A stretch of 64,000 nucleotides of DNA from an uncultured bacterium (GCA_965371225.1 CBDUXP010000007.1:28392-92391); one strand, 5' to 3'. Positions 4,457-59,599 are shown, counted from the stretch's first letter. Made by a program: numbers and translations. The notes: generated from the sequence alone by a model not told the origin.

Positions 4457-4458
4457 CG

Positions 4459-12866: not shown

Positions 12867-15178
12867 GCCGGGACGGGCGCGGCAGGGCGGGCGGGCGCGC
12901 GGGCGGCGCCACAGTCCGCGAGCACCAGATCGAGCAAGCGAAGGGCGGCGGCCTTGCCCTCCTCCCCCACCTCGAGCGGCGGGCCGACACACGAGGGACA
13001 TCCGCACTCGCACGCACAGCCCGCAATCAACTCGCGCGCCCCGGCGAAGACCATCTCCTGCAAGCGGAAGAGTTTGTCGCTGTAGCCCACGCCGCCGGGA
13101 TAGTTGTCGTACACGTAGACCGTGGCGCGCTCGCTGAACGGCGCACGCACCATCGGCACGGCGCGCACGTCGCGGGGATCGCACATGAGGTAAATCGAGG
13201 CCACTTGCCCGAGCACGTGGGCGACGGCTTGCAGCGCCCCGCCGATGATTTGCGGCCCGACGCCGATGTCTTCGAGCGCCTCCGGCGTAAAGTCGCGCCA
13301 GAACGCCGTCGTGTGCAGGTGCGATTCCGGCAGGTAGATGCGGCCGACCCCCAGGTTCTCGTGCGTGCGGAACTTTACTTTCTTGTACGCGACCGGGAGG
13401 GTGGACACCGCGACTTCGCCGCAGCCGACGCTGCCGCGCGGGGCCGGCGCGTCCTGGAACACCGCGAGCACCTTGATCGCCGTTTTCGATTCCGCGTCCG
13501 TGTAGTAGTCCACCTCCACGGGTTTCACATACGCCTTCTTGTCGTCGTAGTCGAGGCGCTCGACGGAGTAGGTGGCGCCTTCGTGAATGTAGATCGCCCC
13601 TTCGTACACCTCGAGCGTAGCGGCCACGTAATCCACTTCGCCGATGACGCGGTCACCGTTCTGGCAGTCGACGATCACCACGTTCTCCGGCGACGCGCTG
13701 CGCAGGCTCACGTCTTCCGCGGGATACGCGTCGGCCGCCCAATACCACCGGCCCTCCACGTGCCGCACCAGCTCCAACTCCTCCAGGTACGCGAGCATCT
13801 CGCCCATCTCGTCGACGCCGAAGCGCTCCCCGTCCTCGAAGGGCAGCTCGAACAGGGCGCACTTGAGGTGGCCCAGCAAGAGGATGAGGTTGTTCGGATC
13901 CACCACGCCGTGTTCCGGCGGCTGATCGAAGAAGTAGTCCGGATGGTGCATCAGGAACTGGTCCACCGGCGCGCTCGAGCCCACGAGAATCGCGGCGCTC
14001 ACGCTGCTGCGCCGCCCCGCCCGGCCCGCCTGCTGCCAGGTGCTCGCAATGCTGCCGGGATAACCCGCCATCAGACAGGCGTCCAGCGCGCCGATGTCGA
14101 TGCCCAACTCCAAGGCGTTCGTACTGACCACGCACCGGATGCTCCCATCCCGCAGCCCCGCTTCGATCGCCCGCCGCTCGTTGGGAAGGTACCCGCCGCG
14201 GTAGCCCGTGATCCGCCCGGCTTTCTGCCGCCGGGAGCGGGCCTGCTCCTTCAGGTACGTGGTCAACAGTTCCACCCGCAGCCGGCTCCGCCCGAAGACG
14301 ATCAGCTGCGTGCCCTTGTCCATCAGGCGGCTGGCCAGCCGCTGCGTCTCATTAATGACCGAGCGGCGAATGCCCAGCGCCGCGTCCACCACGGGGGGGT
14401 TGTACAGGATGATGTGTTTTTCGCCGCGCGGCGCTCCGTTGTCGTCGATGAGTTCGACGTCCTCCCCGAGCAGTTTCGTGGCGAGTTCGCGCGGATTCGC
14501 AATCGTGGCGCTGCAGCAGATGAACTGCGGCTGCGTGCCGTAGAACGCGCACAGGCGCCGCAGGCGGCGCACGAGATTGGCGAAGTGGGAGCCGAACACC
14601 CCGCGGTACTGGTGCACTTCGTCGATCACGACGTAGCGGAGGTTCTCGAACAACTGTGTCCACTTCGTGTGGTGCGGCAGGATGCCGGTGTGCAGCATGT
14701 CCGGGTTCGTGAGCACGATGTGCCCCGAGCGGCGAATGGCCCGGCGCGCGTCGGCCGGCGTGTCCCCGTCGAACGTGTGCACGCGCAACGGCGTGGGCAA
14801 ACGGTCGCGCAGGCCGCGCAAGGTGTTCAGCTGATCGTTGGCCAGGGCCTTGGTCGGGAAGACGTACAACGCGCGCGCGGCCGGGTCCCGGAGCACCCGC
14901 TGCAACACCGGCAGGTTGTAGCACAAGGTTTTCCCAGACGCGGTGGGCGTCACGATGACCACGTGCCGGCCGCGGCCGACGGCGTCCCACGCGGCAAGCT
15001 GGTGGCTGTACAGAGAGCGGATCCCGTCAGCGGCCAGGGCCGCCTGCAAGCGGGGATCGAGCGTGGGCGGGAAGGGCGCGGTGACCGCCGCGCGCGCCGG
15101 TATGGTGCGCCAGGCCGCCACATTGGCCTGCACCCGCGGATCCGCACGCAACTGGTCGAGGGCTTGGGCGAGGTTCAT
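12863..15178 (-). CDS. mrfA: DEAD/DEAH-box superfamily-2 helicase with a C-terminal DUF1998 zinc-finger domain, YprA/MrfA-like
   Basis: Walker A TPTASGKT, DEVH box (VVIDEVH) and motif VI QQAGRAGRR. The C-terminal 4-Cys cluster CACECGCPSC is typical of DUF1998. Confidence 0.8.
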   Translation of the reverse strand: MNLAQALDQLRADPRVQANVAAWRTIPARAAVTAPFPPTLDPRLQAALAADGIRSLYSHQLAAWDAVGRGRHVVIVTPTASGKTLCYNLPVLQRVLRDPAARALYVFPTKALANDQLNTLRGLRDRLPTPLRVHTFDGDTPADARRAIRRSGHIVLTNPDMLHTGILPHHTKWTQLFENLRYVVIDEVHQYRGVFGSHFANLVRRLRRLCAFYGTQPQFICCSATIANPRELATKLLGEDVELIDDNGAPRGEKHIILYNPPVVDAALGIRRSVINETQRLASRLMDKGTQLIVFGRSRLRVELLTTYLKEQARSRRQKAGRITGYRGGYLPNERRAIEAGLRDGSIRCVVSTNALELGIDIGALDACLMAGYPGSIASTWQQAGRAGRRSSVSAAILVGSSAPVDQFLMHHPDYFFDQPPEHGVVDPNNLILLLGHLKCALFELPFEDGERFGVDEMGEMLAYLEELELVRHVEGRWYWAADAYPAEDVSLRSASPENVVIVDCQNGDRVIGEVDYVAATLEVYEGAIYIHEGATYSVERLDYDDKKAYVKPVEVDYYTDAESKTAIKVLAVFQDAPAPRGSVGCGEVAVSTLPVAYKKVKFRTHENLGVGRIYLPESHLHTTAFWRDFTPEALEDIGVGPQIIGGALQAVAHVLGQVASIYLMCDPRDVRAVPMVRAPFSERATVYVYDNYPGGVGYSDKLFRLQEMVFAGARELIAGCACECGCPSCVGPPLEVGEEGKAAALRLLDLVLADCGAARAPARPAAPVPA

Positions 15179-15352
15179 GCCTGTGGGGACCGCCGCGAGG
15201 GACGCGCCGCCGCCTCGCCAGGCCGAATGGCCGAGTATAGCGAAGACAAACCGAAACTACAAGACACACCCACAGTGCAGAATGTCGGGGCGCCCTGCCC
15301 CCGCCCCGCTAGATATAGGGGAGTGCTGCACCGCGGTCGGCACCCGGCCGAT

Positions 15353-15380
15353 TTGCATCTGCCCCCGAGTCCGGTATCAT
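15353..15380 (+). promoter_or_regulatory. Putative sigma70-like promoter (TTGCAT, 16-nt spacer, TATCAT) giving a leaderless transcript for the TPR lipoprotein
   Basis: Hexamers read from the sequence. The -10 ends about 8 nt before the ATG at 15389, so transcription would start at or next to the start codon. Confidence 0.35.
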
Positions 15381-15388
15381 GCCTGTGT

Positions 15389-17017
15389 ATGCGCGCCTGG
15401 CGGGGAGACCTGCGCACTTACATTCTCGTGTGCTGTGCGGCCGGAGTGCTGCCGCTGTTGGGCTGCAATTCGACACCGAAGGCTGGGTTCAGCCTGGCCA
15501 ACCTGCCCGCGGCGGGGATGCATGAGGAGCCCCTGCCCAGTATCGCCGAGGCTCGGGCGGCGCCGCGCGTGCTGGTGCTGCCGCTGGCGGACCGGGCCGC
15601 GCCCAATCGCATCGGGCGGATGCACAATGCGATCGACGATCTCATTCGGCGCGACCTGATGCTGCTGCCGGAACTCTCGGTGTTTCCGGATAACGCGGTC
15701 CCGATCCCCCTGGCCTCCCTCTATGCCGAAGAGTACCGCGCGCTGGACACCGCGCTCTGGGCGGGGGAACGGGCGGGGGCCACCCACGTGCTCATCGGCG
15801 AGATCGCCGCGCGTGGGGAGCAGATCGTCGTGGAAATTGATCTGATCGACATGCAAGCCCGCGAGATCACGAACTCGGTCCGCGTGCAGGCGGGCCCCAG
15901 GCGCATCGACAAGGAACTGCCGCGCTTGCGGCGGACGGTGATGGAGTTTTTCCGGGACGATTCTGCCCCCCTGAAGAAGACGGTGCCGGGCTTCACGCCC
16001 CCCCACGCCGTGCTCGAGGATTGCGGCTACGGCCAGAACCGCCTCGCCAACGGGGAGTACAGCCAAGCCCTCATCGACTTCTACGCGGCGGCGAAGCACA
16101 AGCGGCCGTACGCGGGCGCGTACGTGGGGATCGCGGAGACGCAACTCCTCCTGGGCGGGTTAGACCTGTCGGATCGCGCGTTCGGGGTCGCGCTCGAGCG
16201 GGATCCGGACTACGTGGAGGTGTACTGGCGGTACGCGGTCATGCGCATCCGCGTGCGCGGCGGCGGCCCCGAAGCGCTGGCGCTGTGTCAGCGGGCGTCA
16301 TTGCGCGCGCCCCTGTTCGGTCCCGCACACTTGACGCTGGGGACCCTGTGGTTTGCGGAGAAGCAGTACGAGCACGCCGACCGGCACTTCGAACTCGCCG
16401 CCACCCTGCTGCCGAACTCCCTGTGGCCCATCTACAATCACGCGCACGTGCGGCGGGTCCAGGGGGACCTGGCGGGCGCGCGCGCCGCCCTGGAACGCGC
16501 CCTGGATCTCGGCCCCCGGCAGCCGCGAATCCATTTCGACCTCGGTCAGCTCCTCCAAGAGCAAGGCGACGACAAGGGCGCGCTGGAACGGTTCAAGAGC
16601 GCCGTCAACTACGACCCGCAGAATCCGCTGTTCCGCTACCACACGGCCGTCCTCTTCGAACGCCTGGGCCAGGCGGACGAGGCGTTGGCGGCGTACCAGG
16701 CGGCGATGGCGATCCCCTTTCGCCACGAGTGGCTCCACCGGAAGCTCGCCGAAGCGTTTCTGCGCCTGAAGCGCCTGCAGGAGGCCGAGCGCACGCTGGC
16801 GGCCGGGTACGCGGACGGCATTCGTGATCCCGAGCATGTGCTCCTGTACGCGAGCGTGCTCCTGCAGCGCGGGCAGAAAAACCACTTGCGACGGCGGGAT
16901 TATTCGACGCGGGCCGGCAACCTGCTCCTCCCGCTACGGGACATGGAGATGACGGCTACGCAGCAGGCGCGGGCGGAGGAATTGGCGGAAGCCGCCGTCC
17001 GCATGGGGACGCGCTAG
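15389..17017 (+). CDS. TPR-repeat lipoprotein
   Basis: Lipobox VLPLLGC, then multiple TPR-like helical repeats. The upstream 728 codons of the 1270-aa track ORF are antisense to mrfA and were rejected. Confidence 0.65.
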   Translation: MRAWRGDLRTYILVCCAAGVLPLLGCNSTPKAGFSLANLPAAGMHEEPLPSIAEARAAPRVLVLPLADRAAPNRIGRMHNAIDDLIRRDLMLLPELSVFPDNAVPIPLASLYAEEYRALDTALWAGERAGATHVLIGEIAARGEQIVVEIDLIDMQAREITNSVRVQAGPRRIDKELPRLRRTVMEFFRDDSAPLKKTVPGFTPPHAVLEDCGYGQNRLANGEYSQALIDFYAAAKHKRPYAGAYVGIAETQLLLGGLDLSDRAFGVALERDPDYVEVYWRYAVMRIRVRGGGPEALALCQRASLRAPLFGPAHLTLGTLWFAEKQYEHADRHFELAATLLPNSLWPIYNHAHVRRVQGDLAGARAALERALDLGPRQPRIHFDLGQLLQEQGDDKGALERFKSAVNYDPQNPLFRYHTAVLFERLGQADEALAAYQAAMAIPFRHEWLHRKLAEAFLRLKRLQEAERTLAAGYADGIRDPEHVLLYASVLLQRGQKNHLRRRDYSTRAGNLLLPLRDMEMTATQQARAEELAEAAVRMGTR

Positions 17018-40373: not shown

Positions 40374-40499
40374 CCCGGTTGCGCGAGGCGGGGGCGTTTG
40401 TTAACATGCCACCGTTAGAGTCTATTGCCGGTCACCGACCATGGAGTTGGGCGCGGGGGACGCGCCCGGGGGTCCGGGGCGCGTCGGGAAAGGCAGCAG

Positions 40500-40943
40500 A
40501 TGGCGAAGATCCTGATCGCTGACGATGAGGGCGATCTCCTCGAAGTCATGCGGGCAACGCTGGAGGCCACCGGGCATAAGGTGGGGACCGCGCGCGACGG
40601 CGTCATCGCGCGCAAGATGCTCGCGAAATTCCCGTTCGACTGTGCCATTCTGGATGTGGTGATGCCCCGGCTCAATGGGGTAGCACTGCTGAAGATGATC
40701 CGGAAGAGCCGCTCCCGCCAGAATCTGCCGGTCTGCCTGATGACCGCGAATCCACAAGAGCGCGATGCCCTGCTGAAAAGTGAAGGCTTGGCCGCCGATG
40801 TCCTCCTCATCAAGCCCTTCAATACCATGGATCTCATCGAGGCCGTGACGGCGATGACCGAGGCGGGCACAAGTCAGCCCGATGAGCAGGGCCGGCGCCT
40901 GAAAACCACCCTCCCCGGCCGGCACCGGACCACGAGCATCTGA
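40500..40943 (+). CDS. Single-domain response regulator (CheY-like receiver)
   Basis: Starts MAKILIADDEGDLLEV. The phospho-acceptor is in CAILDVVMPRLNG and a conserved Lys sits in LLIKPF. There is no output domain. This is the first gene of a co-directional cluster. Confidence 0.75.
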   Translation: MAKILIADDEGDLLEVMRATLEATGHKVGTARDGVIARKMLAKFPFDCAILDVVMPRLNGVALLKMIRKSRSRQNLPVCLMTANPQERDALLKSEGLAADVLLIKPFNTMDLIEAVTAMTEAGTSQPDEQGRRLKTTLPGRHRTTSI

Positions 40944-41037
40944 GCCCGGGCCGCCGGCGACCCTGGTGCCCCACCGCCGAGGGTGCGGTAGAATTAGAAT
41001 AGAATACGGCTGCTCCGGCAGCGTTTCGCTGACCCCT

Positions 41038-41514
41038 ATGGCACAGACTTGGGCTGAACACGAATCCTGCGCCCGGTGCGGCGCCTCCCTGGGCGGGGAG
41101 TTCCGCACAAATCACCTGGGGGTCCGGTTCTGCCAAACCTGCTATGAGGATAGCGTGGTCCCCCGCGCAGCGGAGCGGAGCCCGGACCCCGTCCTGGAAC
41201 AGGTGTGCAATCGCTGCCGGGGCTCCCTGATCAATGGCTACCACGCAAATTACATGGGCGTCCTCTTCTGCACCGCGTGTTTCGAGCGGACGCACACGCC
41301 GGAAGGCCGGCCACGCGCGGACTGGGCAGAACGCGAGGCGCTGAGCGTGGCCCAACAGCCCCGCGACCGGGATGAGGACGGGGACGCGCCTGCCGGCGAG
41401 GATGAAGAGGGCATCTATCTTCACGACGTCTTTTTCGTCACGACGATTCTCGCCCTGGTGATGTACGCGGTGTCGCGCTTCGGCGGCGCGCTGCTAGCCC
41501 TCGGCGGCTACTAG
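41038..41514 (+). CDS. Tandem zinc-ribbon protein with an acidic linker and a C-terminal TM anchor
   Basis: Two C-x2-C-x17-C-x2-C modules (CARCGASLGGEFRTNHLGVRFCQTCY and CNRCRGSLINGYHANYMGVLFCTACF), a Glu/Asp-rich stretch, and a C-terminal hydrophobic helix. There is a 4-nt gap to the archease gene. Confidence 0.45.
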   Translation: MAQTWAEHESCARCGASLGGEFRTNHLGVRFCQTCYEDSVVPRAAERSPDPVLEQVCNRCRGSLINGYHANYMGVLFCTACFERTHTPEGRPRADWAEREALSVAQQPRDRDEDGDAPAGEDEEGIYLHDVFFVTTILALVMYAVSRFGGALLALGGY

Positions 41515-41518
41515 CCGC

Positions 41519-41947
41519 GTGCCCGCCGCAACGTTCGAGCGGATCGACCACACGGCCGACGTCGGCTTGCGTCTCCTGGCCCCCACCGAAGCCGACCTGT
41601 TCGTCACGGCGGTCGCGGGCCTGCACGCACTCTGGGGGCTTCCCGCGCCCGAGCCGCCGGCGGGCGCGCCGACGGAGCCACTGGAAGTGCATGGGGCGGA
41701 CATCGAAAGCCTCCTGGTCGCCTGGCTGAACGAATTGATCTTTCAAGCGACGGCGGCGGGGCGAGTGGCCGCGAGCGTGCAGGAGCCCTGCCTGGCGGAC
41801 GGCCGGTTCCGGGCGGAGGTGGCCTGGCAGCCCGTACAGTGGGACACCTCGGTGGACGGGGCGGACATCAAGGCGGCCACCTACCACACCGTACACGTGA
41901 CCGAAACGGCGGAAGGCTTCACCACGACGATCATCTTCGACGTGTGA
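41519..41947 (+). CDS. Archease (RtcB activator)
   Basis: N-terminal FERIDHTADVG motif and an archease-length protein immediately upstream of rtcB. Confidence 0.8.
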   Translation: MPAATFERIDHTADVGLRLLAPTEADLFVTAVAGLHALWGLPAPEPPAGAPTEPLEVHGADIESLLVAWLNELIFQATAAGRVAASVQEPCLADGRFRAEVAWQPVQWDTSVDGADIKAATYHTVHVTETAEGFTTTIIFDV

Positions 41948-41963
41948 GCCGGCCAGGCGGGCA

Positions 41964-43496
41964 ATGCTGATGGGCTGGTTGAAGCGGAAAAAGCCAAAGA
42001 AGCGGCGCGACGCGATCGTGGCGCGCACCCTCGACGTCGACGGCGACGCGTCGGCCCTGACGTACAACCGCGTCTCGGACGTGCTCTGGGAGATCCCCCG
42101 CACCGGGAACATGCGCGTGCCCGCGCGGATCTACGCGACCCGGGCTGGCCTGGAACGCATCAAACAGGACAAAGCCCCGCTCCAGGCCGTGAATGTGGCG
42201 CACCTGCCCGGCATCGTGAAGTATTCCCTCGCCATGCCGGACATCCATTGGGGCTACGGGTTTCCCATCGGTGGCGTGGCCGCAACCGACCCGGCCGAGG
42301 GGGGCGTTATCTCGCCCGGCGGCGTCGGCTATGACATCAATTGCGGGTGCCGCCTGGTGACCACCGGCCTAACGCGGGAGGAGGTGCAGCCCAAGATGGC
42401 GGCGCTCGTGAATCGCTTGTTCGAACAGATTCCCACGGGGGTCGGCGCAAACCACGCCATCGATAAGCTCTCGGTCGCGCAGCTGCGCAAGCTCATCGTC
42501 GATGGGGCGGAGTACGCGACCGCCCAGGGGTATGGCGACGCCGCCGAGCTGGACCACATCGAAGGAGGCGGTAAGTTCGAGGGTGCCGATCCGAAAGCGC
42601 CCTCGACCAAAGCGTTTCAGCGGGGGATCAATTCCGTCGGCACCCTCGGCTCCGGGAATCATTTCCTCGAAGTGGGGTACGTGGACGAACTGTACGATAC
42701 CGCCACCGCCGCGGCATTCGGCCTTGTCGAAGGCATGGTGACGGTCCTCATCCACACCGGCTCGCGCGGCTTCGGCCATCAGGTGTGCGTCGATCATTTG
42801 GAGCAGATGTCGCATGCCGGCCGCAAATACGATCTGCACCTGCCCGACCGGCAGTTGGCAGCCGCCCCTATCGAATCACCAGAGGGGGAACAGTACCTGA
42901 CCGCTATGGGGTGCGCGGCGAATTACGCGTGGGTGAACCGGCAAGTCATCCAGCAGTTGGCCCGCGACGCGTTCATGCACGTGTTCGATATATCGCCGAC
43001 AGACTTGGCGTGGCGGCTGTTGTACGATGTCTGCCATAACATCGCCAAGATGGAGACCCATACCGTGGACGGTGAGGCGCGTCGGCTGTGCGTCCATCGC
43101 AAGGGGGCGACTCGCGCGTTCCCTTCGGGGCATCCGGACCTCCCGCCGGCGTTCCGGACGACCGGCCAACCCGTACTCATCCCAGGGGACATGGGGCGAG
43201 GCTCCTTCGTGTGCGTCGGTCTCCCGGGAGCCATGGAGGAAACGTTCGGCAGCACGTGCCACGGCGCGGGGCGCGCTATGAGCCGCCGCCAGGCATTGAA
43301 GCGCGCAAAAGGGCGCTCGATCGTGGACGAACTTCGACAGCAGGGCATTATCGTGAAAGCGAAAAGTCACGCCACCATCGGGGAAGAAATGCCCGAGGCA
43401 TACAAGGACGCCACCGACGTGGTGAGGGTTGTGGACCGTGCCGGCATCAGTCGGACCGTGGCCAAGCTCCGCCCGCTGGGCGTCATTAAGGGATAA
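41964..43496 (+). CDS. rtcB: RNA-splicing ligase RtcB (3'-phosphate/5'-hydroxyl RNA ligase)
   Basis: Full-length RtcB with metal/GTP-binding histidines (DIHWGYGFPIGG, GYDINCGCRL, GSGNHFLEV, HTGSRGFGHQV, the nucleophile His in STCHGAGR). Confidence 0.9.
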   Translation: MLMGWLKRKKPKKRRDAIVARTLDVDGDASALTYNRVSDVLWEIPRTGNMRVPARIYATRAGLERIKQDKAPLQAVNVAHLPGIVKYSLAMPDIHWGYGFPIGGVAATDPAEGGVISPGGVGYDINCGCRLVTTGLTREEVQPKMAALVNRLFEQIPTGVGANHAIDKLSVAQLRKLIVDGAEYATAQGYGDAAELDHIEGGGKFEGADPKAPSTKAFQRGINSVGTLGSGNHFLEVGYVDELYDTATAAAFGLVEGMVTVLIHTGSRGFGHQVCVDHLEQMSHAGRKYDLHLPDRQLAAAPIESPEGEQYLTAMGCAANYAWVNRQVIQQLARDAFMHVFDISPTDLAWRLLYDVCHNIAKMETHTVDGEARRLCVHRKGATRAFPSGHPDLPPAFRTTGQPVLIPGDMGRGSFVCVGLPGAMEETFGSTCHGAGRAMSRRQALKRAKGRSIVDELRQQGIIVKAKSHATIGEEMPEAYKDATDVVRVVDRAGISRTVAKLRPLGVIKG

Positions 43497-43498
43497 GC

Positions 43499-44983
43499 AT
43501 GCCCACACCGTCTCCCTCCCCCACGCGGGTCATGGTCATTGCCGACACGCAGGACGGACTGAACGCCGCCGCGCAGGCGCTTCGCGACTGGGCCACAGAA
43601 GCCGGCCAGAACCTGGAGCTGCTCGCGGTCCACGGGCTGGGGGGCGCGCAGGCGCACCTGCATCAGTACATCAACCTCGTCGTCCTCAACTACGTGGGCC
43701 TCCCCGCCGCCCGCGCCATCCCCACCCTGGCCGGACTGCGGGACGCCTACTGCGGGCCCGCGATCGTGGTCAGCGACGACGCCACGGTGGATTCCTGCAC
43801 GTGGGGCCGGCGATACAGCGCGGATTACCATGCGGATGCGCTGGCCGCGCTGGGCGGATACGTGGCCAAAGTGCTCGAGCGGGACCGGCCGCAGGGAAAG
43901 ACGGCGCTCGTGTTCGCCGGTGGCGGCATCCTCGGCGGGTTCAACGAGGCGGGCAGCTTGAAAGCCCTCTACGACTTCGGCATTCGCGAGGCCGACATGT
44001 ACATCGGCCTCAGTGCCGGCTCGTGGGTGGCGGCCATGGCGGCGAACGATGTCACGCCCGAACTGATGATCGAACACCCCCATCTGCACCCGCGCGACTT
44101 CTACCAGTTGAACGGCCGGGACATACTGCGCCAGCTCACCATGTTGGGGCCCAACGTGGTCCGGAGCCTCGCCCAGCGCGTCCTGCATCCGGACAGCGAT
44201 TGGCTCTTCCAACTCTCCAGTATCTTCACCACCTCGCCTCTGACCGGGGACCGGCTGCGGCAGCGGTTCTGCGAGGTGCTCGGCCAGGAGGGGGGCACCA
44301 ACGATTTCGGCGAACTCCGGGAACGCGGGCGGGAACTGTACATCATGGCCGTGGAACTGGATTCCGCCGAACGTCGGGTGTTCGGCGAGGGCGACGACAT
44401 CCACGTCCCCATCTCGGAGGCCGTCAGCGCCTCGTCGGCGCTCCCGATGTTCTACCGGCCGGTGCATATCGACGGCCGCGACTACGTGGACGGTGGGCTC
44501 GCGCGCTCCGCCTGCATCGACACCGCGATTGACAACGGCGCCGACCTCATCGTGTGTCTCAATCCCCTGGTGCCCTACACGGGTGGGGATCCGGGGCACA
44601 TCAAAGCGTTGGGCCTGGCGGGCATCGCCGAGCAGAGCGTGCGCGCGCTCATCCACTCCCGCCTGCACGCGACGGTGGAACGGTTCCGGCAGATTCACCC
44701 GCACGTGACGATCCTCCTCATCGAACCCGATACGAACGATCCCGCCATGTTCCACAACCCCCTGCGCGGGAGCGAGAATATGATTCAACTGGCCGCGCTG
44801 GAGGGATTCAAGTCGACCAAGGCGTTCCTGGAAGAACGGTCGGAATTCATCCAGCATATCTTCGCCAGCCACGGGCGCACGCTAGCCGTCCCGGCCGCGG
44901 ACGATGCGGGAGCCGGAGACGTGCCGTTCGACCACATGCCCGAGACCTGGGTGGACGATCCGGACGTTCAGGAACTGGCGTGA
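43499..44983 (+). CDS. Patatin-like phospholipase, paralog of the 4459..5943 gene, with an N-terminal pseudo-receiver domain
   Basis: Patatin motifs FAGGGILGG, GLSAG and YVDGGL. The N-terminal receiver-like pattern (VMVIAD...NLVVLNYVG...AIVVSDD) is co-linear with the first paralog. The start is 2 nt after the rtcB stop. Confidence 0.8.
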   Translation: MPTPSPSPTRVMVIADTQDGLNAAAQALRDWATEAGQNLELLAVHGLGGAQAHLHQYINLVVLNYVGLPAARAIPTLAGLRDAYCGPAIVVSDDATVDSCTWGRRYSADYHADALAALGGYVAKVLERDRPQGKTALVFAGGGILGGFNEAGSLKALYDFGIREADMYIGLSAGSWVAAMAANDVTPELMIEHPHLHPRDFYQLNGRDILRQLTMLGPNVVRSLAQRVLHPDSDWLFQLSSIFTTSPLTGDRLRQRFCEVLGQEGGTNDFGELRERGRELYIMAVELDSAERRVFGEGDDIHVPISEAVSASSALPMFYRPVHIDGRDYVDGGLARSACIDTAIDNGADLIVCLNPLVPYTGGDPGHIKALGLAGIAEQSVRALIHSRLHATVERFRQIHPHVTILLIEPDTNDPAMFHNPLRGSENMIQLAALEGFKSTKAFLEERSEFIQHIFASHGRTLAVPAADDAGAGDVPFDHMPETWVDDPDVQELA

Positions 44984-45507
44984 TGCCCCTGGAACGGGCG
45001 TTTTGCGGCCGGCGCCTGGAACTCCTGCAAGGGGACATCACCGAGCAAGCGACCGACGCCATCGTCAACGCGGCGAATAACCATCTCGTCCTCGGTGCGG
45101 GCGTGGCCGGGGCGATTCGGACGAAGGGCGGGCCGAGCATTCAGGAGGAGTGCACCCGTCTGGGCCCCATCCCGATAGGGGAAGCAGCCGTGACCGGGGC
45201 CGGGAACCTTGCGGCCCGCCACGTGATTCATGCGGCAAGCATGGGCGATGAACCGGTCAGCGCCAGGTCGTTGCGGGACAGCACGCACAACAGCTTGAAA
45301 CGCGCGAGGGAACTCGGGTTGACCTCTATCAGCTTTCCCGCCATCGGGACGGGGATCGGTGGCTTCTCGCTCCACGAAGCCGCGACGATCATGCTCGGCA
45401 CCGCCAAGGAGCACTTGGAAGCCGACACGACGCTGGACCTCGTCCGCTTCGTTCTGTGGAGCGAGGCCGATTACCAGGCGTTTGAGACGATCCTTAACCG
45501 GCTCTAG
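44983..45507 (+). CDS. Macro-domain protein (MacroD/YmdB-type ADP-ribose/O-acetyl-ADP-ribose hydrolase)
   Basis: Motifs VNAANNHLVLGAGVAGAI and AIGTGIGGF. The ATG overlaps the patatin stop in TGATG. Confidence 0.85.
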   Translation: MPLERAFCGRRLELLQGDITEQATDAIVNAANNHLVLGAGVAGAIRTKGGPSIQEECTRLGPIPIGEAAVTGAGNLAARHVIHAASMGDEPVSARSLRDSTHNSLKRARELGLTSISFPAIGTGIGGFSLHEAATIMLGTAKEHLEADTTLDLVRFVLWSEADYQAFETILNRL

Positions 45508-45559
45508 ACCGGTCCGGCGGCGGCGCCCGTGGCTGGCGGCGTTGGTAGTCGGAACCGCG

Positions 45560-48391
45560 ATGCCAGCCGTGGCAGCGGCCGCGCCACCCGCACCGCCCGA
45601 CCCGGTCGCGGTCCTGGTTCCAGGCGGCCCGCAAGACTTCTGGGGCTGGACCCTCGGTCCGCGTACCATGCCCGAGGGGCTGCACGCGACCGTGCGGTTC
45701 GCAGGCTGGTCCGAGACCGCCACCCGCGAAGCGTTGCTGGAGAGCATGGTGGCCGGAACCGCGGCGGATCTCGTCCTGCTGCGGCCCCAGGACGTGCCCC
45801 CCTTGGCGGACGCCGGCCTCCTGGCCGACCTGGCTGACGAACCCGCCGTGGCTCAGGTGCGCACGCACGCCGGCGCCGGAGTGGTGTCGTGCATCGCCGA
45901 CGGTGATGCCGTGTGGGGTATCGCGGCAGGGTTGACGCTGCCGCTCGTGCTCATCCGGCCGGAACACGCCACCGGCCTACCCATCCCCGACACGTGGGCG
46001 GCGTTCTTCGCTCGCCTGCCGAGCCCCGCACGGGACAACGGCGTCGCGCTGGACCCGGGCCAACTGGAACTGACCTTCGACTGGTTGCGCCGCCGCGCGC
46101 AGCTCCGGCTGGACGCGACGGGAATGGACGCGCCCGCCGCCTGGGGCGCGTGTCTGACGCTCCTGCGCCGCTTGCACTCGACGCCGAGCGCTACGCGGTT
46201 CTGGCAGAAGCGTTGGTCGCCGGCCGTGCCCACCTTTCGGCGCGGCCGCGCCGCGGTGGCCATCGCCGACACGGAGGCATTGCGGGATACGACACCCGGC
46301 ATAACCGGCACGCACGCGATGCCCCTGCCGGCCATCGGTGCGGGCGGCGACCGGTATCCCGTCGCGGTGGCCGGCGTGTGGGTGGTGCCCGCGGGGACGG
46401 ACGTGACGCGGGTTCGGCCGCTGCTCGCGTTCGTCACCAGTGCGGCATTCGCCGCGCGCCTGGCGCAGCACCACGGGTGGGCGCCCGTACGCACCGATGC
46501 CTGGGACCTGATGGGCGCGCTGCTCGAACGCATTCCCGCCTGGCAGACCGTGCAGCGGCTCTTGCAAGGAGCGGTCCGGACCGAGGCGGAAGGGCCCGGG
46601 GTAGATGCGCGACGCGTGCGCATGGCCCGAGCCGCTGGGCTCTGGCTCTCGGGCGTGCATCCCGACCCAGCCGCTGCGTGGCGGGCTGCGCAGGCCGCGG
46701 AATGGCAGGCCGCTCCGCCGCTACCCCAGCCGTTTCTGCGAATCGCGTCGGCGTCGATGAAGGCATCCACGTCGACAGAGGTGCCGAGAACCCTGGCACA
46801 AGGCGAGACGGCGCTGCTTGAACTCGCCGCCCCGCCGCCCAAGTCGCTGGCCGGCGCGGGGGAGGTCGTCGTCTACGCGCGTGTGAACGGGCGAGCAATC
46901 CCGTTGCCGGCCCAGTTGGCCTTCGTGACCGGCGAACGGGATGCTCTGCGCCCGGCCGGAGTGGGACAGACAGCCGCGCCGCCGACCGCCCGATACTTCG
47001 TCGACGTGCACGTACCGTTCGGTACACCACTAGGCCGGTACGACCTCACCCTTGCGCCGGGCGGGGACACCGGGGGATCCTCGGACGGGATGCCGATCGG
47101 ATCCGTGCGAGTGACCGCGATCCCGACCGACGAGCGAACGGTACCCGCCTTGTGCGGGTTGGGCCTGCCGGCAGGCTCTCCGTACACGGACGCGGTACGC
47201 ACCCTGCTGCTCGATCACGGTTTTACTCCTTTCCCCCTGCCGCTCGATGCGCCGCTCGTGGCCGATCCCCGGCGCGGGCCTCTCGTGTTGCGACGCTGGC
47301 ACGATCCCACGCAAGCTGAGCGTGACGCGCACGCGGCCGGGGAGGCGGGGGTGCTGGCGGACGTGCTCGAGTATTCGTACGACGAACCGACGCTCCTCCA
47401 CTTTCCGCACCTGCGACACGAAGCGGCGCGGTACCAGGCGCTGGGCGTACGGGTGCTCGCGACGCATCCGCCCGATCCGCTGTTGGCAGGGACCGCGCAG
47501 GTGTGGGGTGTGCACACGGCCCTGCGGCCGACGCACACGCCGAGCACGCCGGACGCGTGGCGCACGGTGGTCCGACGCATGGCGGATGCCCGGGCGCGGG
47601 GGGAAGACGTGTGGTGGTATACCGCGGGGGATGTCGCCCCCCTCCCCAGCCTGCAGCTCCACGCGAACCTGACGCGCCTCCGCGCCGCCTTTTTTCGGTT
47701 GCCCGCGTTGGGATTCTCGGGCGTGCTTCAGCCGGAGGCGGCGGCGTGGGGTCCCGACCCCGGCGAATTAGACCGGGGGGCGCTGGGGGTCGGCGAGGGA
47801 ATTCTGTGCTTTCCGGCACGCGATGGCTCGGCGGTGGTCCGACCCAGCGTCCGCCTGAAGGCCTTGCGCGAGGGACGGTGGACCCTCCACCTGCTCGCCC
47901 AGTTACACCGGCAGCTCGCGGCGCGGACGGCGGCACTGCCGGACGGCGCGGCGTGGACGGCATACCCGGCGGAACGGCTAGCGGCGTACGGTCGCGCGGT
48001 GGTCAGACCTGAGGCGTTAGCGCTCGGTGACGCCGTGCATCCGCTCATGCACCTCACCACGGATCCCAGGCACTTGGCGACGGTCGCGCGCGCATTGCGC
48101 CTGGAACTCGAGGGGGCATTCAGGGGACCGTGGCTGCTGGTACGCGCGGACGTGCCGGACTGGAGCGTGACGACCGCGGACCGCGTCACGCTCTCCGGCC
48201 GCGTCCCGGCCCAGGGGACGGTATCCGTCGCGGGGCGACGCGTCGTGACCACCGCGAACGGGAATTTTACCGTGACACCGATGCTGGACCTTGGCTTGAC
48301 CCTGCTCGACATCGAGGTCCGCTCGGGCGGGAAGGCGCATCGCATGACGTGGCACGTGTGGCGCGCCGCCGGCCCGTTGTCTGGCGCATAG
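45560..48391 (+). CDS. Large hypothetical protein. The N-terminal ~400 aa resemble an ABC-type extracellular solute-binding protein (family 1) without a signal peptide. The C-terminal ~550 aa are uncharacterised.
   Basis: 944 aa from the first plausible ATG after the macro-domain gene (a TTG at 45542 is also possible). The N-terminal pattern FWGW...AADLVLL...DAGLLADL...GDAVWGIA is typical of sugar-SBP folds. Confidence 0.5.
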   Translation: MPAVAAAAPPAPPDPVAVLVPGGPQDFWGWTLGPRTMPEGLHATVRFAGWSETATREALLESMVAGTAADLVLLRPQDVPPLADAGLLADLADEPAVAQVRTHAGAGVVSCIADGDAVWGIAAGLTLPLVLIRPEHATGLPIPDTWAAFFARLPSPARDNGVALDPGQLELTFDWLRRRAQLRLDATGMDAPAAWGACLTLLRRLHSTPSATRFWQKRWSPAVPTFRRGRAAVAIADTEALRDTTPGITGTHAMPLPAIGAGGDRYPVAVAGVWVVPAGTDVTRVRPLLAFVTSAAFAARLAQHHGWAPVRTDAWDLMGALLERIPAWQTVQRLLQGAVRTEAEGPGVDARRVRMARAAGLWLSGVHPDPAAAWRAAQAAEWQAAPPLPQPFLRIASASMKASTSTEVPRTLAQGETALLELAAPPPKSLAGAGEVVVYARVNGRAIPLPAQLAFVTGERDALRPAGVGQTAAPPTARYFVDVHVPFGTPLGRYDLTLAPGGDTGGSSDGMPIGSVRVTAIPTDERTVPALCGLGLPAGSPYTDAVRTLLLDHGFTPFPLPLDAPLVADPRRGPLVLRRWHDPTQAERDAHAAGEAGVLADVLEYSYDEPTLLHFPHLRHEAARYQALGVRVLATHPPDPLLAGTAQVWGVHTALRPTHTPSTPDAWRTVVRRMADARARGEDVWWYTAGDVAPLPSLQLHANLTRLRAAFFRLPALGFSGVLQPEAAAWGPDPGELDRGALGVGEGILCFPARDGSAVVRPSVRLKALREGRWTLHLLAQLHRQLAARTAALPDGAAWTAYPAERLAAYGRAVVRPEALALGDAVHPLMHLTTDPRHLATVARALRLELEGAFRGPWLLVRADVPDWSVTTADRVTLSGRVPAQGTVSVAGRRVVTTANGNFTVTPMLDLGLTLLDIEVRSGGKAHRMTWHVWRAAGPLSGA

Positions 48392-57549: not shown

Positions 57550-59331
57550 TTACTCACGTTCAAACCAGCGCTCCCATTCGAAATCGGCCGTCGGCAATAG
57601 GTCGGCGGTACGGTGCACCAAGATCGCGCGAATTTCCGACGCCGTGGCGGCCGACAACGCTTCCGCCGCCACCGCCTGGGAATCGCTCAGGGAGATGGAC
57701 CGGATGATGCGCTTGATCTCCGGAATTTCGGCGGGGACCATGCTGAACTCGCGCAAGCCCAGGCCGAGCAGGAGCATAGTGAACCCGGGGTGGCCTGCCA
57801 GATCGCCGCAGAGACTCACGGGCCTCTGGGCCTGTTCCGCGGCGCGGAGCAGATGGTGGAGACTGCGGATGATACTGGGATGCGCGGGCACGTACAGGTG
57901 CGAGACTAGTTCGTTGATGCGGTCCACCGCGAGCGTGTACTGAATGAGGTCGTTGGTGCCCACGCTCAGAAAATCGCATTCCCGCGCGAGCAGATCGGCG
58001 GTGAAGACGGCCGAGGGAATTTCGATCATCGCGCCAACAGCCATGTGCTCGGGCAGCGTCGCGGCCTCCGCGACCAACTCCGCCCAGGTTTGATCGAACG
58101 CCTCCCGCGCCCGCCGAAAGTCCTCGAGCCCGGTGACCATGGGAAACATGACGCGCACGTCCCCATGGGCGCCCGCCCGGCAAATGGCCCGCAGCTGCGT
58201 GCGGAACAACTCAGGATGCGCGAGACTGAACCGAATCGCGCGACAGCCCATGACGGGATTCGCCTCATGGTAGTCGTACTGCCCGTCCAGCACCCGATCC
58301 GCGCCCACGTCAAGGGTGCGGATGGTGACGGGCTGCCCGGCGAACCGTTCCGCGACCCGCCGGTACGCCTGATATTGCTCCTCTTCATCGGGCAGTGTGG
58401 GGCGATTCAAGAAGAGATATTCGGTCCGGTACAGCCCCACGCCTGTCGCGCCATGCATGTCGAGACTCACCACTTCGTCCGGCAGGTCAATATTTGCTTG
58501 AAGCTGGACTTCGATCTCGTCCGTCGTCTCCGCCCGTAAATCCTCCAACTGGTCCAGCTCGTGCTCGAACTCGATCACATGGGCCCGCCGTTCTTCCGTC
58601 GCGGCAATCATCTGCGCATCCGGATGCACGGTGACCTCACCCCGATACCCGTCCACGATCAACGTATCCCCGGGCCGGATGCGATAGAGCTGGGCCTTGG
58701 CGCCGACGACGGCGGGAATCTCGAGGGCCTTCGCCAGAATGGCCGTGTGGCTTGTCTGGCCGCCCGCCACCGTGACGAACGCCCGCACATGCTCCCGGTC
58801 CAACTGCATGGTGTCCGACGGGGTGAGGTCGTGCGCCACGACAATCACCGGCCCGTCCAACTTCTCGAGGCTCGCCGCCTCTCCAGTCGCCAATTTGCTC
58901 TGCACGCGCCGACACACGTCAGCGATATCCACAAAGCGATCCGCCAAATAGGGGTCGTCGACATGCTGAAACCGTTCGCGGAGCGTCGTCACCTCGTCAG
59001 CGAGAATGTACTCGACGTTCCGCAACTCGGACCGCACCCGTTGGGGGATGCGGCCGAAGAAGGTGGTGTCCTGCAGGAGTTGCAAATGCGACTTGAAGAT
59101 TTCCTCCACACTGGGCTCGCCGATTTCTTCCATCGCGCGCCGACTCAGGGCCTCTATGTCTTTCCGCGTCTCGAGCACAGCCAGCGTAAGGCGTTGGATC
59201 TCCGCGTCCACCTCTTCTTCCTGAATCCGCCGCGGGACGACGTAGAAATCCTCGCTGAAGTGGATGTGCGCCCGGCCCACGGCGATCCCCGGCGACGCCG
59301 GCACCCCGGTAATGACGTTCGCTTCAGGCAT
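57550..59331 (-). CDS. ptsI: Phosphoenolpyruvate-protein phosphotransferase (PTS enzyme I)
   Basis: Full-length EI. The phospho-His region is GGQTSHTAILAKALEIPAVVG, followed by the PEP-binding TIM barrel. The start was chosen just downstream of ptsH. Confidence 0.9.
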   Translation of the reverse strand: MPEANVITGVPASPGIAVGRAHIHFSEDFYVVPRRIQEEEVDAEIQRLTLAVLETRKDIEALSRRAMEEIGEPSVEEIFKSHLQLLQDTTFFGRIPQRVRSELRNVEYILADEVTTLRERFQHVDDPYLADRFVDIADVCRRVQSKLATGEAASLEKLDGPVIVVAHDLTPSDTMQLDREHVRAFVTVAGGQTSHTAILAKALEIPAVVGAKAQLYRIRPGDTLIVDGYRGEVTVHPDAQMIAATEERRAHVIEFEHELDQLEDLRAETTDEIEVQLQANIDLPDEVVSLDMHGATGVGLYRTEYLFLNRPTLPDEEEQYQAYRRVAERFAGQPVTIRTLDVGADRVLDGQYDYHEANPVMGCRAIRFSLAHPELFRTQLRAICRAGAHGDVRVMFPMVTGLEDFRRAREAFDQTWAELVAEAATLPEHMAVGAMIEIPSAVFTADLLARECDFLSVGTNDLIQYTLAVDRINELVSHLYVPAHPSIIRSLHHLLRAAEQAQRPVSLCGDLAGHPGFTMLLLGLGLREFSMVPAEIPEIKRIIRSISLSDSQAVAAEALSAATASEIRAILVHRTADLLPTADFEWERWFERE

Positions 59332-59599
59332 AGGCCTCCCCAAAGCCCGACGCGAAATACTCCACGAGGAACTGCAGGCACGCCTCCTCGTCCGGTCCGT
59401 CCAGGTGCGCGATAACTTCCGCGCCGTTTCCCGCGGCGAGCGTGAGCAAACCGATGATGCTCTTCGCGTTCACCCGCTCGCCATCCTTCTCCAAATAGAC
59501 ATCACAGCGGAACTTGTTCAGTTTCTCCACCAGCTTGGCCGCCGGTCGCGCGTGCAGCCCTATCTCATTTGTTACGCGCATGGTCACAGACCGGCTCAC
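59324..59599 (-). CDS. ptsH: Phosphocarrier protein HPr
   Basis: His15 context IGLHARPAAKLV and Ser46 context NAKSIIGLLTLAAG (the HprK target). Confidence 0.8.
   Translation of the reverse strand: MSRSVTMRVTNEIGLHARPAAKLVEKLNKFRCDVYLEKDGERVNAKSIIGLLTLAAGNGAEVIAHLDGPDEEACLQFLVEYFASGFGEAYA

What the first reader, a model, noticed from the sequence alone, without database searches (positions are those of the whole stretch)
40374..45507. Extended RNA-repair-like operon: receiver, tandem zinc-ribbon membrane protein, archease, RtcB, pseudo-receiver patatin phospholipase, macro domain
Six co-directional genes are packed with gaps of 4, 16 and 2 nt and a TGATG overlap, which suggests a single transcript. 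Established knowledge: archease activates RtcB, and macro domains hydrolyse ADP-ribose derivatives such as ADP-ribose-1''-phosphate generated during tRNA splicing/repair. A catalytically intact patatin-like lipase (GGGxxG, GxSxG and DGG motifs are all present) welded between rtcB and a MacroD-type gene is not a combination I know from the described Rtc systems. This is inference. It could be a stress or phage-triggered module that couples RNA-end healing and de-ADP-ribosylation to a membrane- or lipid-directed effector, or an abortive-infection-like effector restrained by the repair enzymes. The upstream receiver and membrane-anchored double zinc ribbon could be its signal input.
Basis: partly seen in the sequence, partly recalled or inferred. 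Interest (0 to 1): 0.85.

Follow-up and report, generated by a model that had tools for sequence, protein, structure and literature searches.

The report
RtcB–macro operon with inserted patatin lipase
A real, tightly packed gene cluster for RNA-end ligation (RtcB plus archease) with an ADP-ribose-removing macro enzyme is conserved in distant bacteria, but the lipase gene inside it occurs only in this lineage, so the "lipase coupled to RNA repair" idea is weakly supported.

Summary
The six co-directional genes exist as described: receiver 40500-40943, double zinc-ribbon membrane protein 41038-41514, archease, RtcB, patatin and macro. The gaps are 94/4/16/2 nt, followed by a TGATG overlap. All Pfam assignments hold. 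The patatin N-domain has a receiver fold without the phospho-acceptor Asp, so it is a pseudo-receiver.

The neighbourhood census splits the claim in two. First, receiver – zinc-ribbon – archease – RtcB – X – macro – large SBP/GH123-like protein is a conserved cluster. It recurs in five independent Hydrogenedentota/Abyssobacteria contigs with different upstream flanks, and macro is 58-61% identical. I found no description of it in the papers held. Second, X is a DUF498 gene in all five of those contigs. X is the patatin only in the window's own small clade, where the whole surrounding block is syntenic. Six more distant members of the same patatin family have no RtcB, archease or macro within about 10 kb. 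Five of them sit beside an ECF-sigma/HtrA cluster. The window also carries a second paralogue at 4459-5943.

I found no defence-system signature and no link to mobile elements. Best reading: this is a two-component-associated RtcB/archease RNA-ligation operon with a macro-domain partner, and a lineage-specific lipase gene occupies a variable slot in it. It is a new variant of a known kind and moderately interesting.

The parts
40374..40499 (.). Divergent intergenic region between GGT (- strand) and the receiver gene; probable promoter region
   Evidence: Two short blocks, GCGCATTATAGCGAT and TTTGTTAACATG, are shared with the relative L014. The sigma-70 consensus scan finds nothing.
40500..40943 (+). 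Stand-alone canonical response-regulator receiver (147 aa)
   Evidence: PF00072, 77 bits. D8/D9, D52, T82 and K105 are invariant in the alignment with orthologues from L014, L020 and L022, at 43-78% identity.
40944..41037 (.). 94-nt spacer with an AT-rich TAGAAT x3 element (40989-41005); possible internal promoter
   Evidence: The relative L026 lacks the receiver gene and starts the cluster at the zinc-ribbon gene.
41038..41514 (+). Tandem zinc-ribbon (LIM-like) protein with a C-terminal membrane anchor (158 aa)
   Evidence: No Pfam or NCBIfam family. The eight Cys of two CxxC...CxxC units are invariant. The family is rare, 42 clusters. It was found next to archease/RtcB in every locus examined.
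41519..41947 (+). Archease (142 aa, GTG start)
   Evidence: PF01951, 88 bits. It starts 4 nt after the zinc-ribbon stop.
41964..43496 (+). RtcB RNA 3'-phosphate/5'-OH ligase (510 aa, archaeal/eukaryal-like long type with a ~25-aa basic N-extension)
   Evidence: PF01139, 560 bits. It is about 60% identical to RtcB of many phyla.
43499..43894 (+). Pseudo-receiver N-domain of the patatin protein (residues 1-132); invariant C100-x-W102-G103-R104 motif on helix 4
   Evidence: AF2 pLDDT 93.8 with (beta-alpha)5 topology. The Foldseek top 50 are almost all receiver domains. Asn64 aligns with the acceptor Asp. The Pfam receiver HMM does not match.
43907..44527 (+). Patatin-like phospholipase domain (residues 137-343) of the 494-aa protein 43499-44983; Ser172 at 44012-44014, Asp331 at 44489-44491
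   Evidence: PF01734, 77 bits. The motifs are invariant. Closest structures are PlpD, CapE, VipD and ExoU.
44983..45507 (+). MacroD-type macro domain protein (174 aa); its start overlaps the patatin stop (TGATG)
   Evidence: PF01661, 116 bits. The closest solved structure is T. thermophilus TTHA0132, E 3e-48. It is 58-61% identical to the macro gene at the same position in five Hydrogenedentota loci.
45542..48391 (+). Large exported SBP_bac_8 / GH123-like protein; start uncertain (longest ORF from 45359; in-frame TTG at 45542, ATG at 45560). Conserved next gene of the cluster
   Evidence: PF13416, 39 bits. The C-terminal half is 24-29% identical to the ~1000-aa SBP_bac_8+GH123_cat protein that follows macro in L020 and L022-L025. 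It is absent in L016 and separated from macro by an inserted gene in L014.

Best explanation
The region is one probably co-transcribed operon built on an old, conserved cluster: receiver – tandem zinc-ribbon membrane protein – archease – RtcB – [variable slot] – MacroD-type macro – large exported SBP/GH123-like protein.

The core chemistry is RNA-end sealing. RtcB joins 3'-phosphate or 2',3'-cyclic-phosphate ends to 5'-OH ends, and archease makes it a multiple-turnover enzyme (established knowledge).

The macro protein is a conserved partner. Its most likely job (inference) is to remove ADP-ribose or a related adduct that blocks RNA phosphate ends or a protein component, so that RtcB can act. 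The stand-alone canonical receiver and the zinc-ribbon protein are the most likely regulatory or targeting input (inference).

The patatin lipase is not part of the conserved core. A paralogue of a pseudo-receiver-patatin family sits in the slot that holds DUF498 in the other lineage. It has become tightly packed there (2-nt gap, 1-nt overlap), so it is expressed with the operon. It probably contributes membrane-lipid hydrolysis or remodelling under the same, unknown stress condition. It is unlikely to be a toxin held in check by RtcB or macro.

Shown: the gene content, spacing, motifs and folds, the conservation pattern, and the lineage restriction of the patatin. Inferred: co-transcription, the macro substrate, the regulatory roles, the direction of the DUF498/patatin replacement, and the lipase's physiological role.
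For: Anatomy.

Conserved cluster: five contigs (L020 Abyssobacteria SURF_17, L022 Hydrogenedentota CP070779, L023, L024, L025) have Response_reg – zinc ribbon – Archease – RtcB – DUF498 – Macro – SBP/GH123 – VanZ. A sulfatase gene follows VanZ in four of them; L022 has a peptidase there. Their upstream flanks differ.

Orthology by tblastn and alignment: receiver 43-48% identity, zinc ribbon 31-47%, archease 30-33%, RtcB 59-63%, macro 58-61%, SBP 24-29%.

Zinc-ribbon family members share contig lengths with RtcB hits in at least six more cases.

Lineage restriction of the patatin:
- Clade-B loci L014/L015 and L016 keep RtcB-patatin-macro together with flanking genes.
- Family members L001, L002, L007, L008, L017 and L018 have no RtcB, archease or macro hit within about 10 kb. 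Five of them share a divergent unknown – ECF sigma – unknown – HtrA cluster.
- There is a second paralogue in the window at 4459-5943.
- DUF498 is unrelated to the patatin.

The patatin's composition matches the host: GC3 0.86, codon Jensen-Shannon divergence 0.037.

Macro and RNA ends:
- MacroD-type hydrolases, including bacterial ones, reverse ADP-ribosylation of RNA phosphate ends (PMC6582358 abstract).
- E. coli RtcB cannot ligate 3'- or 5'-ADP-ribosylated RNA (PMC9458441).
Against: - No transcript data exist, and the promoter/terminator scans are uninformative in this 67% GC genome.
- The 94-nt receiver/zinc-ribbon spacer and the receiver-less relative L026 allow more than one promoter.
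- The conserved presence of an exported SBP/GH123-like protein and VanZ right after macro (a 4-nt overlap in L023) does not fit a pure RNA-repair reading. The unit may serve something other than RNA repair.
- The five DUF498-type loci probably all belong to one phylum. The window's own phylum is unresolved. The number of truly independent lineages is therefore two.
- The very tight patatin-macro junction is conserved in clade B (overlaps of 1, 1 and 4 nt), which is compatible with real functional coupling.
- The direction of the replacement is not established: patatin replacing DUF498, or the reverse.
Confidence: 0.5

Rival explanations
1. One reading: the patatin is the membrane-directed effector of a stress- or phage-triggered (abortive-infection-like) module. 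RtcB and macro either restrain it or heal collateral damage, and the receiver and zinc ribbon provide the trigger.
For: - The patatin catalytic motifs are intact.
- The structural neighbours include CBASS lipases (CapE) and the toxins ExoU and VipD.
- The stop/start overlap with macro is conserved in clade B, as in many toxin-antidote pairs.
- The pseudo-receiver domain could receive a signal from the stand-alone receiver.
Against: - PADLOC gives only weak generic hits: phospholipase effector 1.7e-7, DarG 1.4e-6.
- There is no cyclase, DarT or other sensor gene in the cluster.
- Family members outside clade B lack an adjacent macro or RtcB, so the lipase does not need a cognate antidote.
- The macro gene predates the lipase at this position, or is independent of it. 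The same macro follows DUF498 in five other loci.
- There are no relatives with the N-domain on phages or plasmids.
- The surroundings are housekeeping genes in stable synteny.
Confidence: 0.08
2. The patatin is a functional replacement for DUF498 in the same pathway. Both would process a common small-molecule or RNA-linked ester, with macro acting on the product. One example is an acylated ADP-ribose or an acylated or aminoacylated RNA end. In that case the lipase-fold enzyme works as an esterase inside the RtcB/macro pathway, not on membranes.
For: - It occupies the same slot between RtcB and macro.
- No DUF498 homologue was found in the window or in the clade-B loci.
- Translational coupling with macro is conserved in clade B.
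- MacroD enzymes are known O-acyl-ADP-ribose deacylases, according to the NCBIfam names.
Against: - DUF498 and the patatin show no sequence relationship, and the function of DUF498 is unknown.
- The patatin family's other members live in envelope-stress-like contexts (ECF sigma/HtrA), not RNA contexts.
- No biochemical precedent was found in the papers searched.
Confidence: 0.12
3. Gene order without shared function. The cluster is an inherited stretch of synteny, a mixed 'uber-operon' of unrelated genes (RNA ligase, macro, exported glycan-binding protein). Neither macro nor the patatin works with RtcB.
For: - The cluster includes functionally unrelated products: SBP/GH123-like protein, VanZ and sulfatase.
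- Only two deep lineages are documented, and one of them is a single phylum.
- RtcB of Rhodothermus is solitary.
Against: - The order is kept while archease has diverged to 30-33% identity and the SBP protein to 24-29%, and while the upstream flanks differ. Synteny rarely survives that distance without selection.
- The zinc-ribbon family appears to exist only in this context.
- The spacings are very short or overlapping.
Confidence: 0.15

Closest known systems
RtcB–archease RNA ligase pair (archaeal/eukaryal tRNA-splicing ligase type; bacterial examples such as Thermus)
   Same: A long-type RtcB (PF01139, 560 bits) lies immediately downstream of archease (PF01951). This RtcB is about 60% identical to many bacterial RtcBs of this type.
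   Different: Here the pair is embedded between a receiver plus zinc-ribbon membrane protein and a macro gene. I did not find that arrangement described in the papers held.
E. coli rtcBA operon with the sigma-54 activator RtcR
   Same: It is an RtcB-centred operon with a dedicated signal-input protein encoded beside it.
   Different: There is no RtcA cyclase and no RtcR (CARF–AAA+–HTH) among the cluster genes. The input candidate is a single-domain receiver. Archease and macro are present instead.
MacroD-type macrodomain hydrolases (TTHA0132, YmdB, MacroD1/2, viral Mac1)
   Same: PF01661, 116 bits. The best solved relative is TTHA0132, E 3e-48. The NAAN and G-x-G-x-G-G-F motifs are conserved.
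   Different: It has a fixed genomic partnership with RtcB/archease. The substrate is unknown. The residue after GV is Ala (GAGVAGAI), as I recall for viral Mac1 macrodomains, not the Asp of MacroD1 or YmdB. That comparison is from the sequence plus my own knowledge.
Bacterial patatin-like phospholipases (PlpD, RssA, CapV/CapE, ExoU, VipD)
   Same: The Ser-Asp dyad and the oxyanion GGGxxG are intact, and the fold matches PlpD and CapE.
   Different: It has an N-terminal pseudo-receiver domain with an invariant CxWGR motif and a ~120-aa conserved C-terminal helical extension. There is no POTRA/beta-barrel domain, no cyclic-nucleotide sensor context and no secretion signal. The family is small: 29 clusters at 90% identity.
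Response-regulator receiver domains / pseudo-receivers
   Same: The N-domain has the (beta-alpha)5 CheY fold.
   Different: The acceptor Asp is replaced by Asn64, and that position varies across the family. There is no conserved Lys after beta5. The domain is not recognised by PF00072.

Membership tests
RtcB–archease ligase module | RtcB family protein (PF01139) above the gathering score | tested here: met
   559.6 bits against a cut-off of 27, covering the full-length profile.
RtcB–archease ligase module | Archease (PF01951) encoded adjacent to RtcB | tested here: met
   88.2 bits against a cut-off of 25. Its stop lies 16 nt before the RtcB start.
RtcB–archease ligase module | GTP/Mn-dependent 3'-P/5'-OH ligation stimulated by archease | not testable with these tools
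   This needs an enzyme assay.
E. coli-type Rtc system (RtcR–RtcB–RtcA) | RtcA RNA 3'-phosphate cyclase and a CARF/sigma-54 activator RtcR next to RtcB | tested here: not met
   None of the cluster genes from 40500 to 49420 matches such families in Pfam or NCBIfam. The rest of the window was only partly annotated.
Patatin-like phospholipase (PF01734) | GGGxxG oxyanion loop, GxSxG nucleophile elbow and a DG[G/A] catalytic Asp | tested here: met
   G141-G146, G170-S172-G174 and D331-G332 are invariant in 29 sequences. The Pfam score is 77 bits.
Patatin-like phospholipase (PF01734) | Lipid acyl-hydrolase activity | not testable with these tools
   This needs a biochemical assay.
CBASS CapV/CapE-type lipase effector | Encoded next to a CD-NTase cyclase and matching the effector profile strongly | tested here: not met
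   The PADLOC phospholipase effector hit is only 28.9 bits, E 1.7e-7. No cyclase-like gene is in the cluster.
DarTG toxin–antitoxin | DarG-type macro antitoxin paired with a DarT ADP-ribosyltransferase | tested here: not met
   The DarG profile scores 26 bits (PADLOC) and 24.8 bits against a cut-off of 250 (NCBIfam). There is no DarT-like gene.
Response-regulator receiver (for the patatin N-domain) | CheY-like (beta-alpha)5 fold | tested here: met
   AF2 pLDDT is 93.8. Foldseek hits are receiver domains with target-normalised TM 0.66-0.75.
Response-regulator receiver (for the patatin N-domain) | Phospho-acceptor Asp at the end of beta3 and a conserved Lys after beta5 | tested here: not met
   Asn64 aligns with Asp52 of the operon's own receiver. 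That column holds N/S/A/V/D/H across the family, and D109-x-H111 stands where the Lys would be. There is no PF00072 match.
MacroD-type macrodomain | Macro fold/profile with an ADP-ribose-binding NAAN motif and a glycine-rich phosphate loop | tested here: met
   PF01661, 116 bits. IVNAANN and FPAIGTGIGGF are invariant in 8 orthologues. The best PDB relatives are TTHA0132 and MacroD-type entries.
Conserved receiver–zinc-ribbon–archease–RtcB–X–macro–SBP/GH123 cluster (unnamed; defined here) | All six conserved genes are in this order and on one strand | tested here: met
   This holds in the window and in L014. It also holds in L020 and L022-L025, with X = DUF498. L016 lacks the SBP gene and L026 lacks the receiver.

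The most novel reading that the evidence does not exclude
The conserved receiver – zinc-ribbon – archease – RtcB – (DUF498 or patatin) – macro cluster may be an undescribed RNA-repair system. In it, the macro enzyme would strip ADP-ribose (or a related NAD-derived cap) from damaged RNA 3'- or 5'-phosphate ends to license RtcB ligation. That would counter RNA-ADP-ribosylating or RNA-cleaving toxins under phospho-relay control. In this lineage the pseudo-receiver lipase would be wired into the same signal through receiver/pseudo-receiver pairing.
Probability: 0.2. Interest if true: 0.7.

Novelty: new variant of a known kind. Interest (0 to 1): 0.45.

Why it matters
The physiological role of bacterial RtcB/archease outside the E. 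coli Rtc system is poorly defined. A fixed genomic partnership of RtcB with a MacroD-type hydrolase, a dedicated receiver and a family-specific zinc-ribbon protein gives a concrete hypothesis to test. ADP-ribosylated RNA ends are a natural block to RtcB: E. coli RtcB cannot ligate them (PMC9458441). The hypothesis is that a macro enzyme clears them. MacroD homologues, including bacterial ones, do reverse RNA-end ADP-ribosylation (PMC6582358).

The work also defines two small uncharacterised families. One is the tandem zinc-ribbon protein. The other is the pseudo-receiver-patatin family with its CxWGR motif.

The census also limits how much weight the lipase adjacency can carry. The lipase gene occurs between RtcB and macro only in this one clade.

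Tried and rejected
- My first tblastn census used receiver and zinc-ribbon coordinates that were off by one base. It missed the receiver, and the zinc-ribbon hit was in the wrong frame. I corrected this.
- The genome and metagenome scans with the patatin alignment returned few loci: 6 and 7, of which 3 and 2 were full-family members. The census therefore rests on 12 exact-protein contig look-ups.
- Homology between DUF498 and the patatin N-domain was rejected (hhalign probability 0.3%).
- The HEAT-repeat protein beside paralogue Pat2 is only about 29% identical to the HEAT protein upstream of the L020 and L024 clusters. That is generic repeat similarity, so I did not use it as a link.
- The promoter and terminator scans gave fewer hits than shuffles.
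- Rfam and tRNA scans of the whole window found nothing, so there is no Y-RNA-like or tRNA partner.
- I tried to place the organism taxonomically with PTS enzyme I. The nearest relative outside the clade is only 44-45% identical, and the only organism name among the top hits is a Nitrospinota MAG. The phylum remains unresolved.
- The afdb50 fold library was unavailable.
- The Burroughs & Aravind 2016 RNA-repair survey, recalled from memory as PMC5062991, is not held. I could not check whether it already lists an RtcB–macro neighbourhood.
- Literature searches for RtcB with macro/archease, with DUF498, or for receiver-patatin proteins found nothing relevant.


Full report
**1. Observation**

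The + strand between 40500 and 45507 carries six genes.

| Gene | Coordinates | Evidence |
|---|---|---|
| Stand-alone receiver | 40500-40943 | PF00072, 77 bits |
| Tandem zinc-ribbon protein with a hydrophobic C-terminus | 41038-41514 | no Pfam or NCBIfam family |
| Archease | 41519-41947 | PF01951, 88 bits |
| RtcB | 41964-43496 | PF01139, 560 bits |
| Patatin protein, 494 aa | 43499-44983 | PF01734 on residues 137-343 |
| Macro protein, 174 aa | 44983-45507 | PF01661, 116 bits |

- The gaps are 94, 4, 16 and 2 nt. The patatin stop overlaps the macro start (TGATG).
- The co-directional run continues past 45507. A ~950-1010-aa SBP_bac_8 protein runs to 48391. An HDAC-family gene and a branched-chain ABC transporter follow.
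- The receiver has all canonical phospho-relay residues.
- The zinc-ribbon protein has two CxxC-x17-CxxC units with all eight Cys invariant. Its most hydrophobic 19-residue stretch is 137-155.

**2. The patatin protein**

- It belongs to a small family of ~500-aa proteins: 29 clusters at 90% identity, 42-69% identical to the window protein. The only organism names in the hit list and locus titles are Planctomycetota MAGs (P0022 and P0027; L001 and L002).
- GGGxxG, GxSxG and DG are invariant, so the catalytic apparatus is intact.
- AlphaFold gives a confident model: pLDDT 81.6 for the whole protein and 93.8 for residues 1-132.
- The catalytic domain resembles PlpD, the CBASS lipase CapE, VipD and ExoU.
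- The N-domain is a (beta-alpha)5 receiver fold. Nearly all of the top 50 Foldseek hits are receiver domains, with target-normalised TM about 0.7.
- Asn64 stands where the acceptor Asp should be. It aligns with Asp52 of the operon's own receiver. That column varies across the family, there is no conserved Lys, and PF00072 does not match.
- "Pseudo-receiver" is therefore correct. An invariant C100-x-W-G-R104 motif lies on helix 4.

**3. Neighbourhood census from the patatin side**

- An NJ tree splits the family into three clades.
- Clade B contains the window and P0002-P0006. Its loci L014/L015 and L016 have the same archease – RtcB – patatin – macro arrangement. The patatin-macro overlap is 1 nt in L014/L015 and 4 nt in L016. 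L014/L015 also show the receiver and zinc-ribbon genes upstream, and L016 starts within the zinc-ribbon gene.
- These loci also share the surrounding genes: GGT and LpxC upstream in L014, and HDAC and the ABC transporter downstream in L014 and L016. This is whole-block synteny of close relatives, so it is not independent evidence.
- Clade A is 45-50% identical to the window protein. Six loci with up to 10 kb of flank each (L001, L002, L007, L008, L017, L018) contain no RtcB, archease or macro. Five of them share a divergently oriented unknown – ECF sigma – unknown – HtrA-like cluster.
- Clade C contains a second paralogue in this very window, Pat2 at 4459-5943, 44% identical. It directly follows a HEAT-repeat gene. 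The same pair occurs in L027.

**4. Census from the RtcB and zinc-ribbon side**

- The RtcB is the widespread long type. It is about 60% identical to RtcBs of many phyla.
- Look-ups of RtcB relatives and of zinc-ribbon relatives gave five contigs: L020 (Abyssobacteria SURF_17), L022 (Hydrogenedentota, complete genome CP070779), L023, L024 and L025. The zinc-ribbon family is rare, with 42 clusters.
- All five have the order Response_reg – zinc ribbon – Archease – RtcB – DUF498 – Macro – SBP_bac_8/GH123_cat (~1000 aa) – VanZ. Their upstream flanks differ. A sulfatase gene follows VanZ in four of them; L022 has a peptidase there.
- Identities to the window proteins are: receiver 43-48%, zinc ribbon 31-47%, archease 30-33%, RtcB 59-63%, macro 58-61%, SBP C-terminal half 24-29%.
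- At least six further zinc-ribbon hits sit on contigs of the same length as RtcB hits.
- RtcB of Rhodothermus is solitary.
- NCBI places Abyssobacteria inside Hydrogenedentota. The five loci therefore represent one phylum, though at least two classes.
- The window's own phylum could not be resolved. Its PTS enzyme I has no relative above 45% identity outside its clade.
- A clade-B relative, L026, has the same GGT/LpxC flank but no receiver gene.

**5. What this means**

- The conserved unit is receiver – zinc ribbon – archease – RtcB – X – macro – SBP/GH123-like. Gene order is kept while archease and the SBP protein have drifted to about 30% identity or less. The zinc-ribbon family appears only in this context. 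Both argue for selection on the arrangement and for a real RtcB–macro link.
- The slot X is variable. It holds DUF498 in 5 of 5 Hydrogenedentota loci and the patatin in the window clade only.
- DUF498 and the patatin are unrelated. No DUF498 homologue was found in the window or in the clade-B loci.
- The patatin's base composition and codon usage match the host, so it is not a recent foreign insertion.
- The patatin is thus a lineage-specific occupant of a variable slot. Its tight packing makes co-expression likely but does not show mechanistic coupling.

**6. Mechanism (mostly inference)**

- RtcB seals 3'-P or 2',3'-cyclic-P ends to 5'-OH ends, with help from archease (established knowledge).
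- MacroD-type enzymes, including bacterial homologues, remove ADP-ribose from phosphorylated RNA ends (PMC6582358).
- E. coli RtcB cannot ligate 3'- or 5'-ADP-ribosylated RNA (PMC9458441).
- A macro enzyme that unblocks ends for RtcB is therefore the most economical reading of the conserved pairing. De-ADP-ribosylation of a protein, or hydrolysis of a small ADP-ribose derivative, is not excluded.
- The receiver, and in L020 and L024 a divergent sensor-less HisKA kinase, suggests phospho-relay control.
- The role of the zinc-ribbon protein is unknown. It is membrane-anchored in some loci and is a ~90-aa soluble form in L025.
- The conserved exported SBP/GH123-like protein and VanZ do not fit an RNA-only story. 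They are the main unexplained element.

**7. The defence or abortive-infection idea**

- PADLOC returns only weak generic hits.
- There is no cyclase, DarT or nuclease sensor gene in the cluster.
- tblastn against phage and plasmid collections finds only generic patatin domains, below 33% identity and without the N-domain.
- The 64-kb window is ordinary chromosome: PTS enzyme I, HPr kinase, RapZ, AcrB, a D-Ala-D-Ala carboxypeptidase, LpxC and GGT.
- Patatin family members outside clade B have no adjacent macro.
- I give this reading a confidence of about 0.08.

**8. Novelty and verdict**

- I found no paper in the held library describing an RtcB–archease–macro neighbourhood, the zinc-ribbon family or a pseudo-receiver-patatin family.
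- The 2016 Burroughs & Aravind survey of RNA-repair systems is not held, so prior description cannot be excluded.
- The finding is a new variant of a known kind: an RtcB/archease operon with conserved macro, receiver and zinc-ribbon partners, plus a lineage-specific lipase gene.
- Interest is moderate, 0.45. The RtcB–macro link is a useful, testable lead. The headline feature, the patatin, is the least conserved part.

Noticed in passing
window 3212-5943 (+); L027 754-3446: A second member of the pseudo-receiver-patatin family (Pat2, 4459-5943) is 44% identical to the operon copy and closest to P0029. It directly follows a HEAT-repeat gene (3212-4456). The same HEAT-to-patatin pair, with overlapping stop and start, occurs in L027.
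   Followed up: partly
window 40989-41005: An AT-rich TAGAATTAGAATAGAAT element (three TAGAAT-like units) lies in the 94-nt receiver/zinc-ribbon spacer of a 67% GC genome. It may be an internal promoter or an operator. It is not conserved in sequence in L014.
   Followed up: partly
L026 3716-6148: A relative with the same isochorismatase – unknown – LpxC – GGT flank has the zinc-ribbon gene directly after the divergent GGT gene. The receiver gene is absent, so the receiver is dispensable for the cluster in at least one genome.
   Followed up: no
L001, L002, L007, L017, L018/L019 (upstream of the patatin match): Clade-A patatins lie divergent to a conserved cluster of unknown protein – ECF sigma factor (57-62% identical among loci) – unknown – Trypsin_2/PDZ (HtrA-like) protease. 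The two named loci (L001, L002) are Planctomycetota MAGs. This hints at an envelope-stress context for the family.
   Followed up: partly
L025 8001-8270; P0197-P0207: Some relatives of the zinc-ribbon protein are only ~90-100 aa, with two ribbons and no membrane segment. They carry faint LIM (PF00412) hits. The membrane anchor is therefore optional.
   Followed up: no
L020 1713-3781 (-); L024 2938-4983 (-): In two Hydrogenedentota loci, a sensor-less HisKA/HATPase kinase (228-248 aa) and a HEAT-repeat protein are encoded divergently upstream of the receiver. The kinase is a candidate cognate kinase. No homologue was found in the 64-kb window.
   Followed up: partly
window 45359-45560: The start of the large SBP-like gene is ambiguous. 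The longest ORF begins at GTG 45359, inside the macro gene. The signal-peptide-like RRRRPWLAALVVGTAMPAVAAAA segment lies just after the macro stop, upstream of the first in-frame TTG (45542) and ATG (45560). Either the two genes overlap or the start is unusual.
   Followed up: no
window 57550-59343 (-) and the whole window: PTS enzyme I has only one relative above 45% identity among 1.84 billion representatives, and that one is on the L016 contig. The organism is therefore a deep, poorly sampled lineage. No tRNA gene and no Rfam family were found in the 64 kb.
   Followed up: partly
window 12863-15178 (-): This is an MrfA/Hrq1-like helicase (DEAD, Helicase_C, WHD_HRQ1 and the MrfA zinc-binding domain). 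A 1270-aa ORF on the opposite strand (13205-17017) overlaps it and may be spurious.
   Followed up: no
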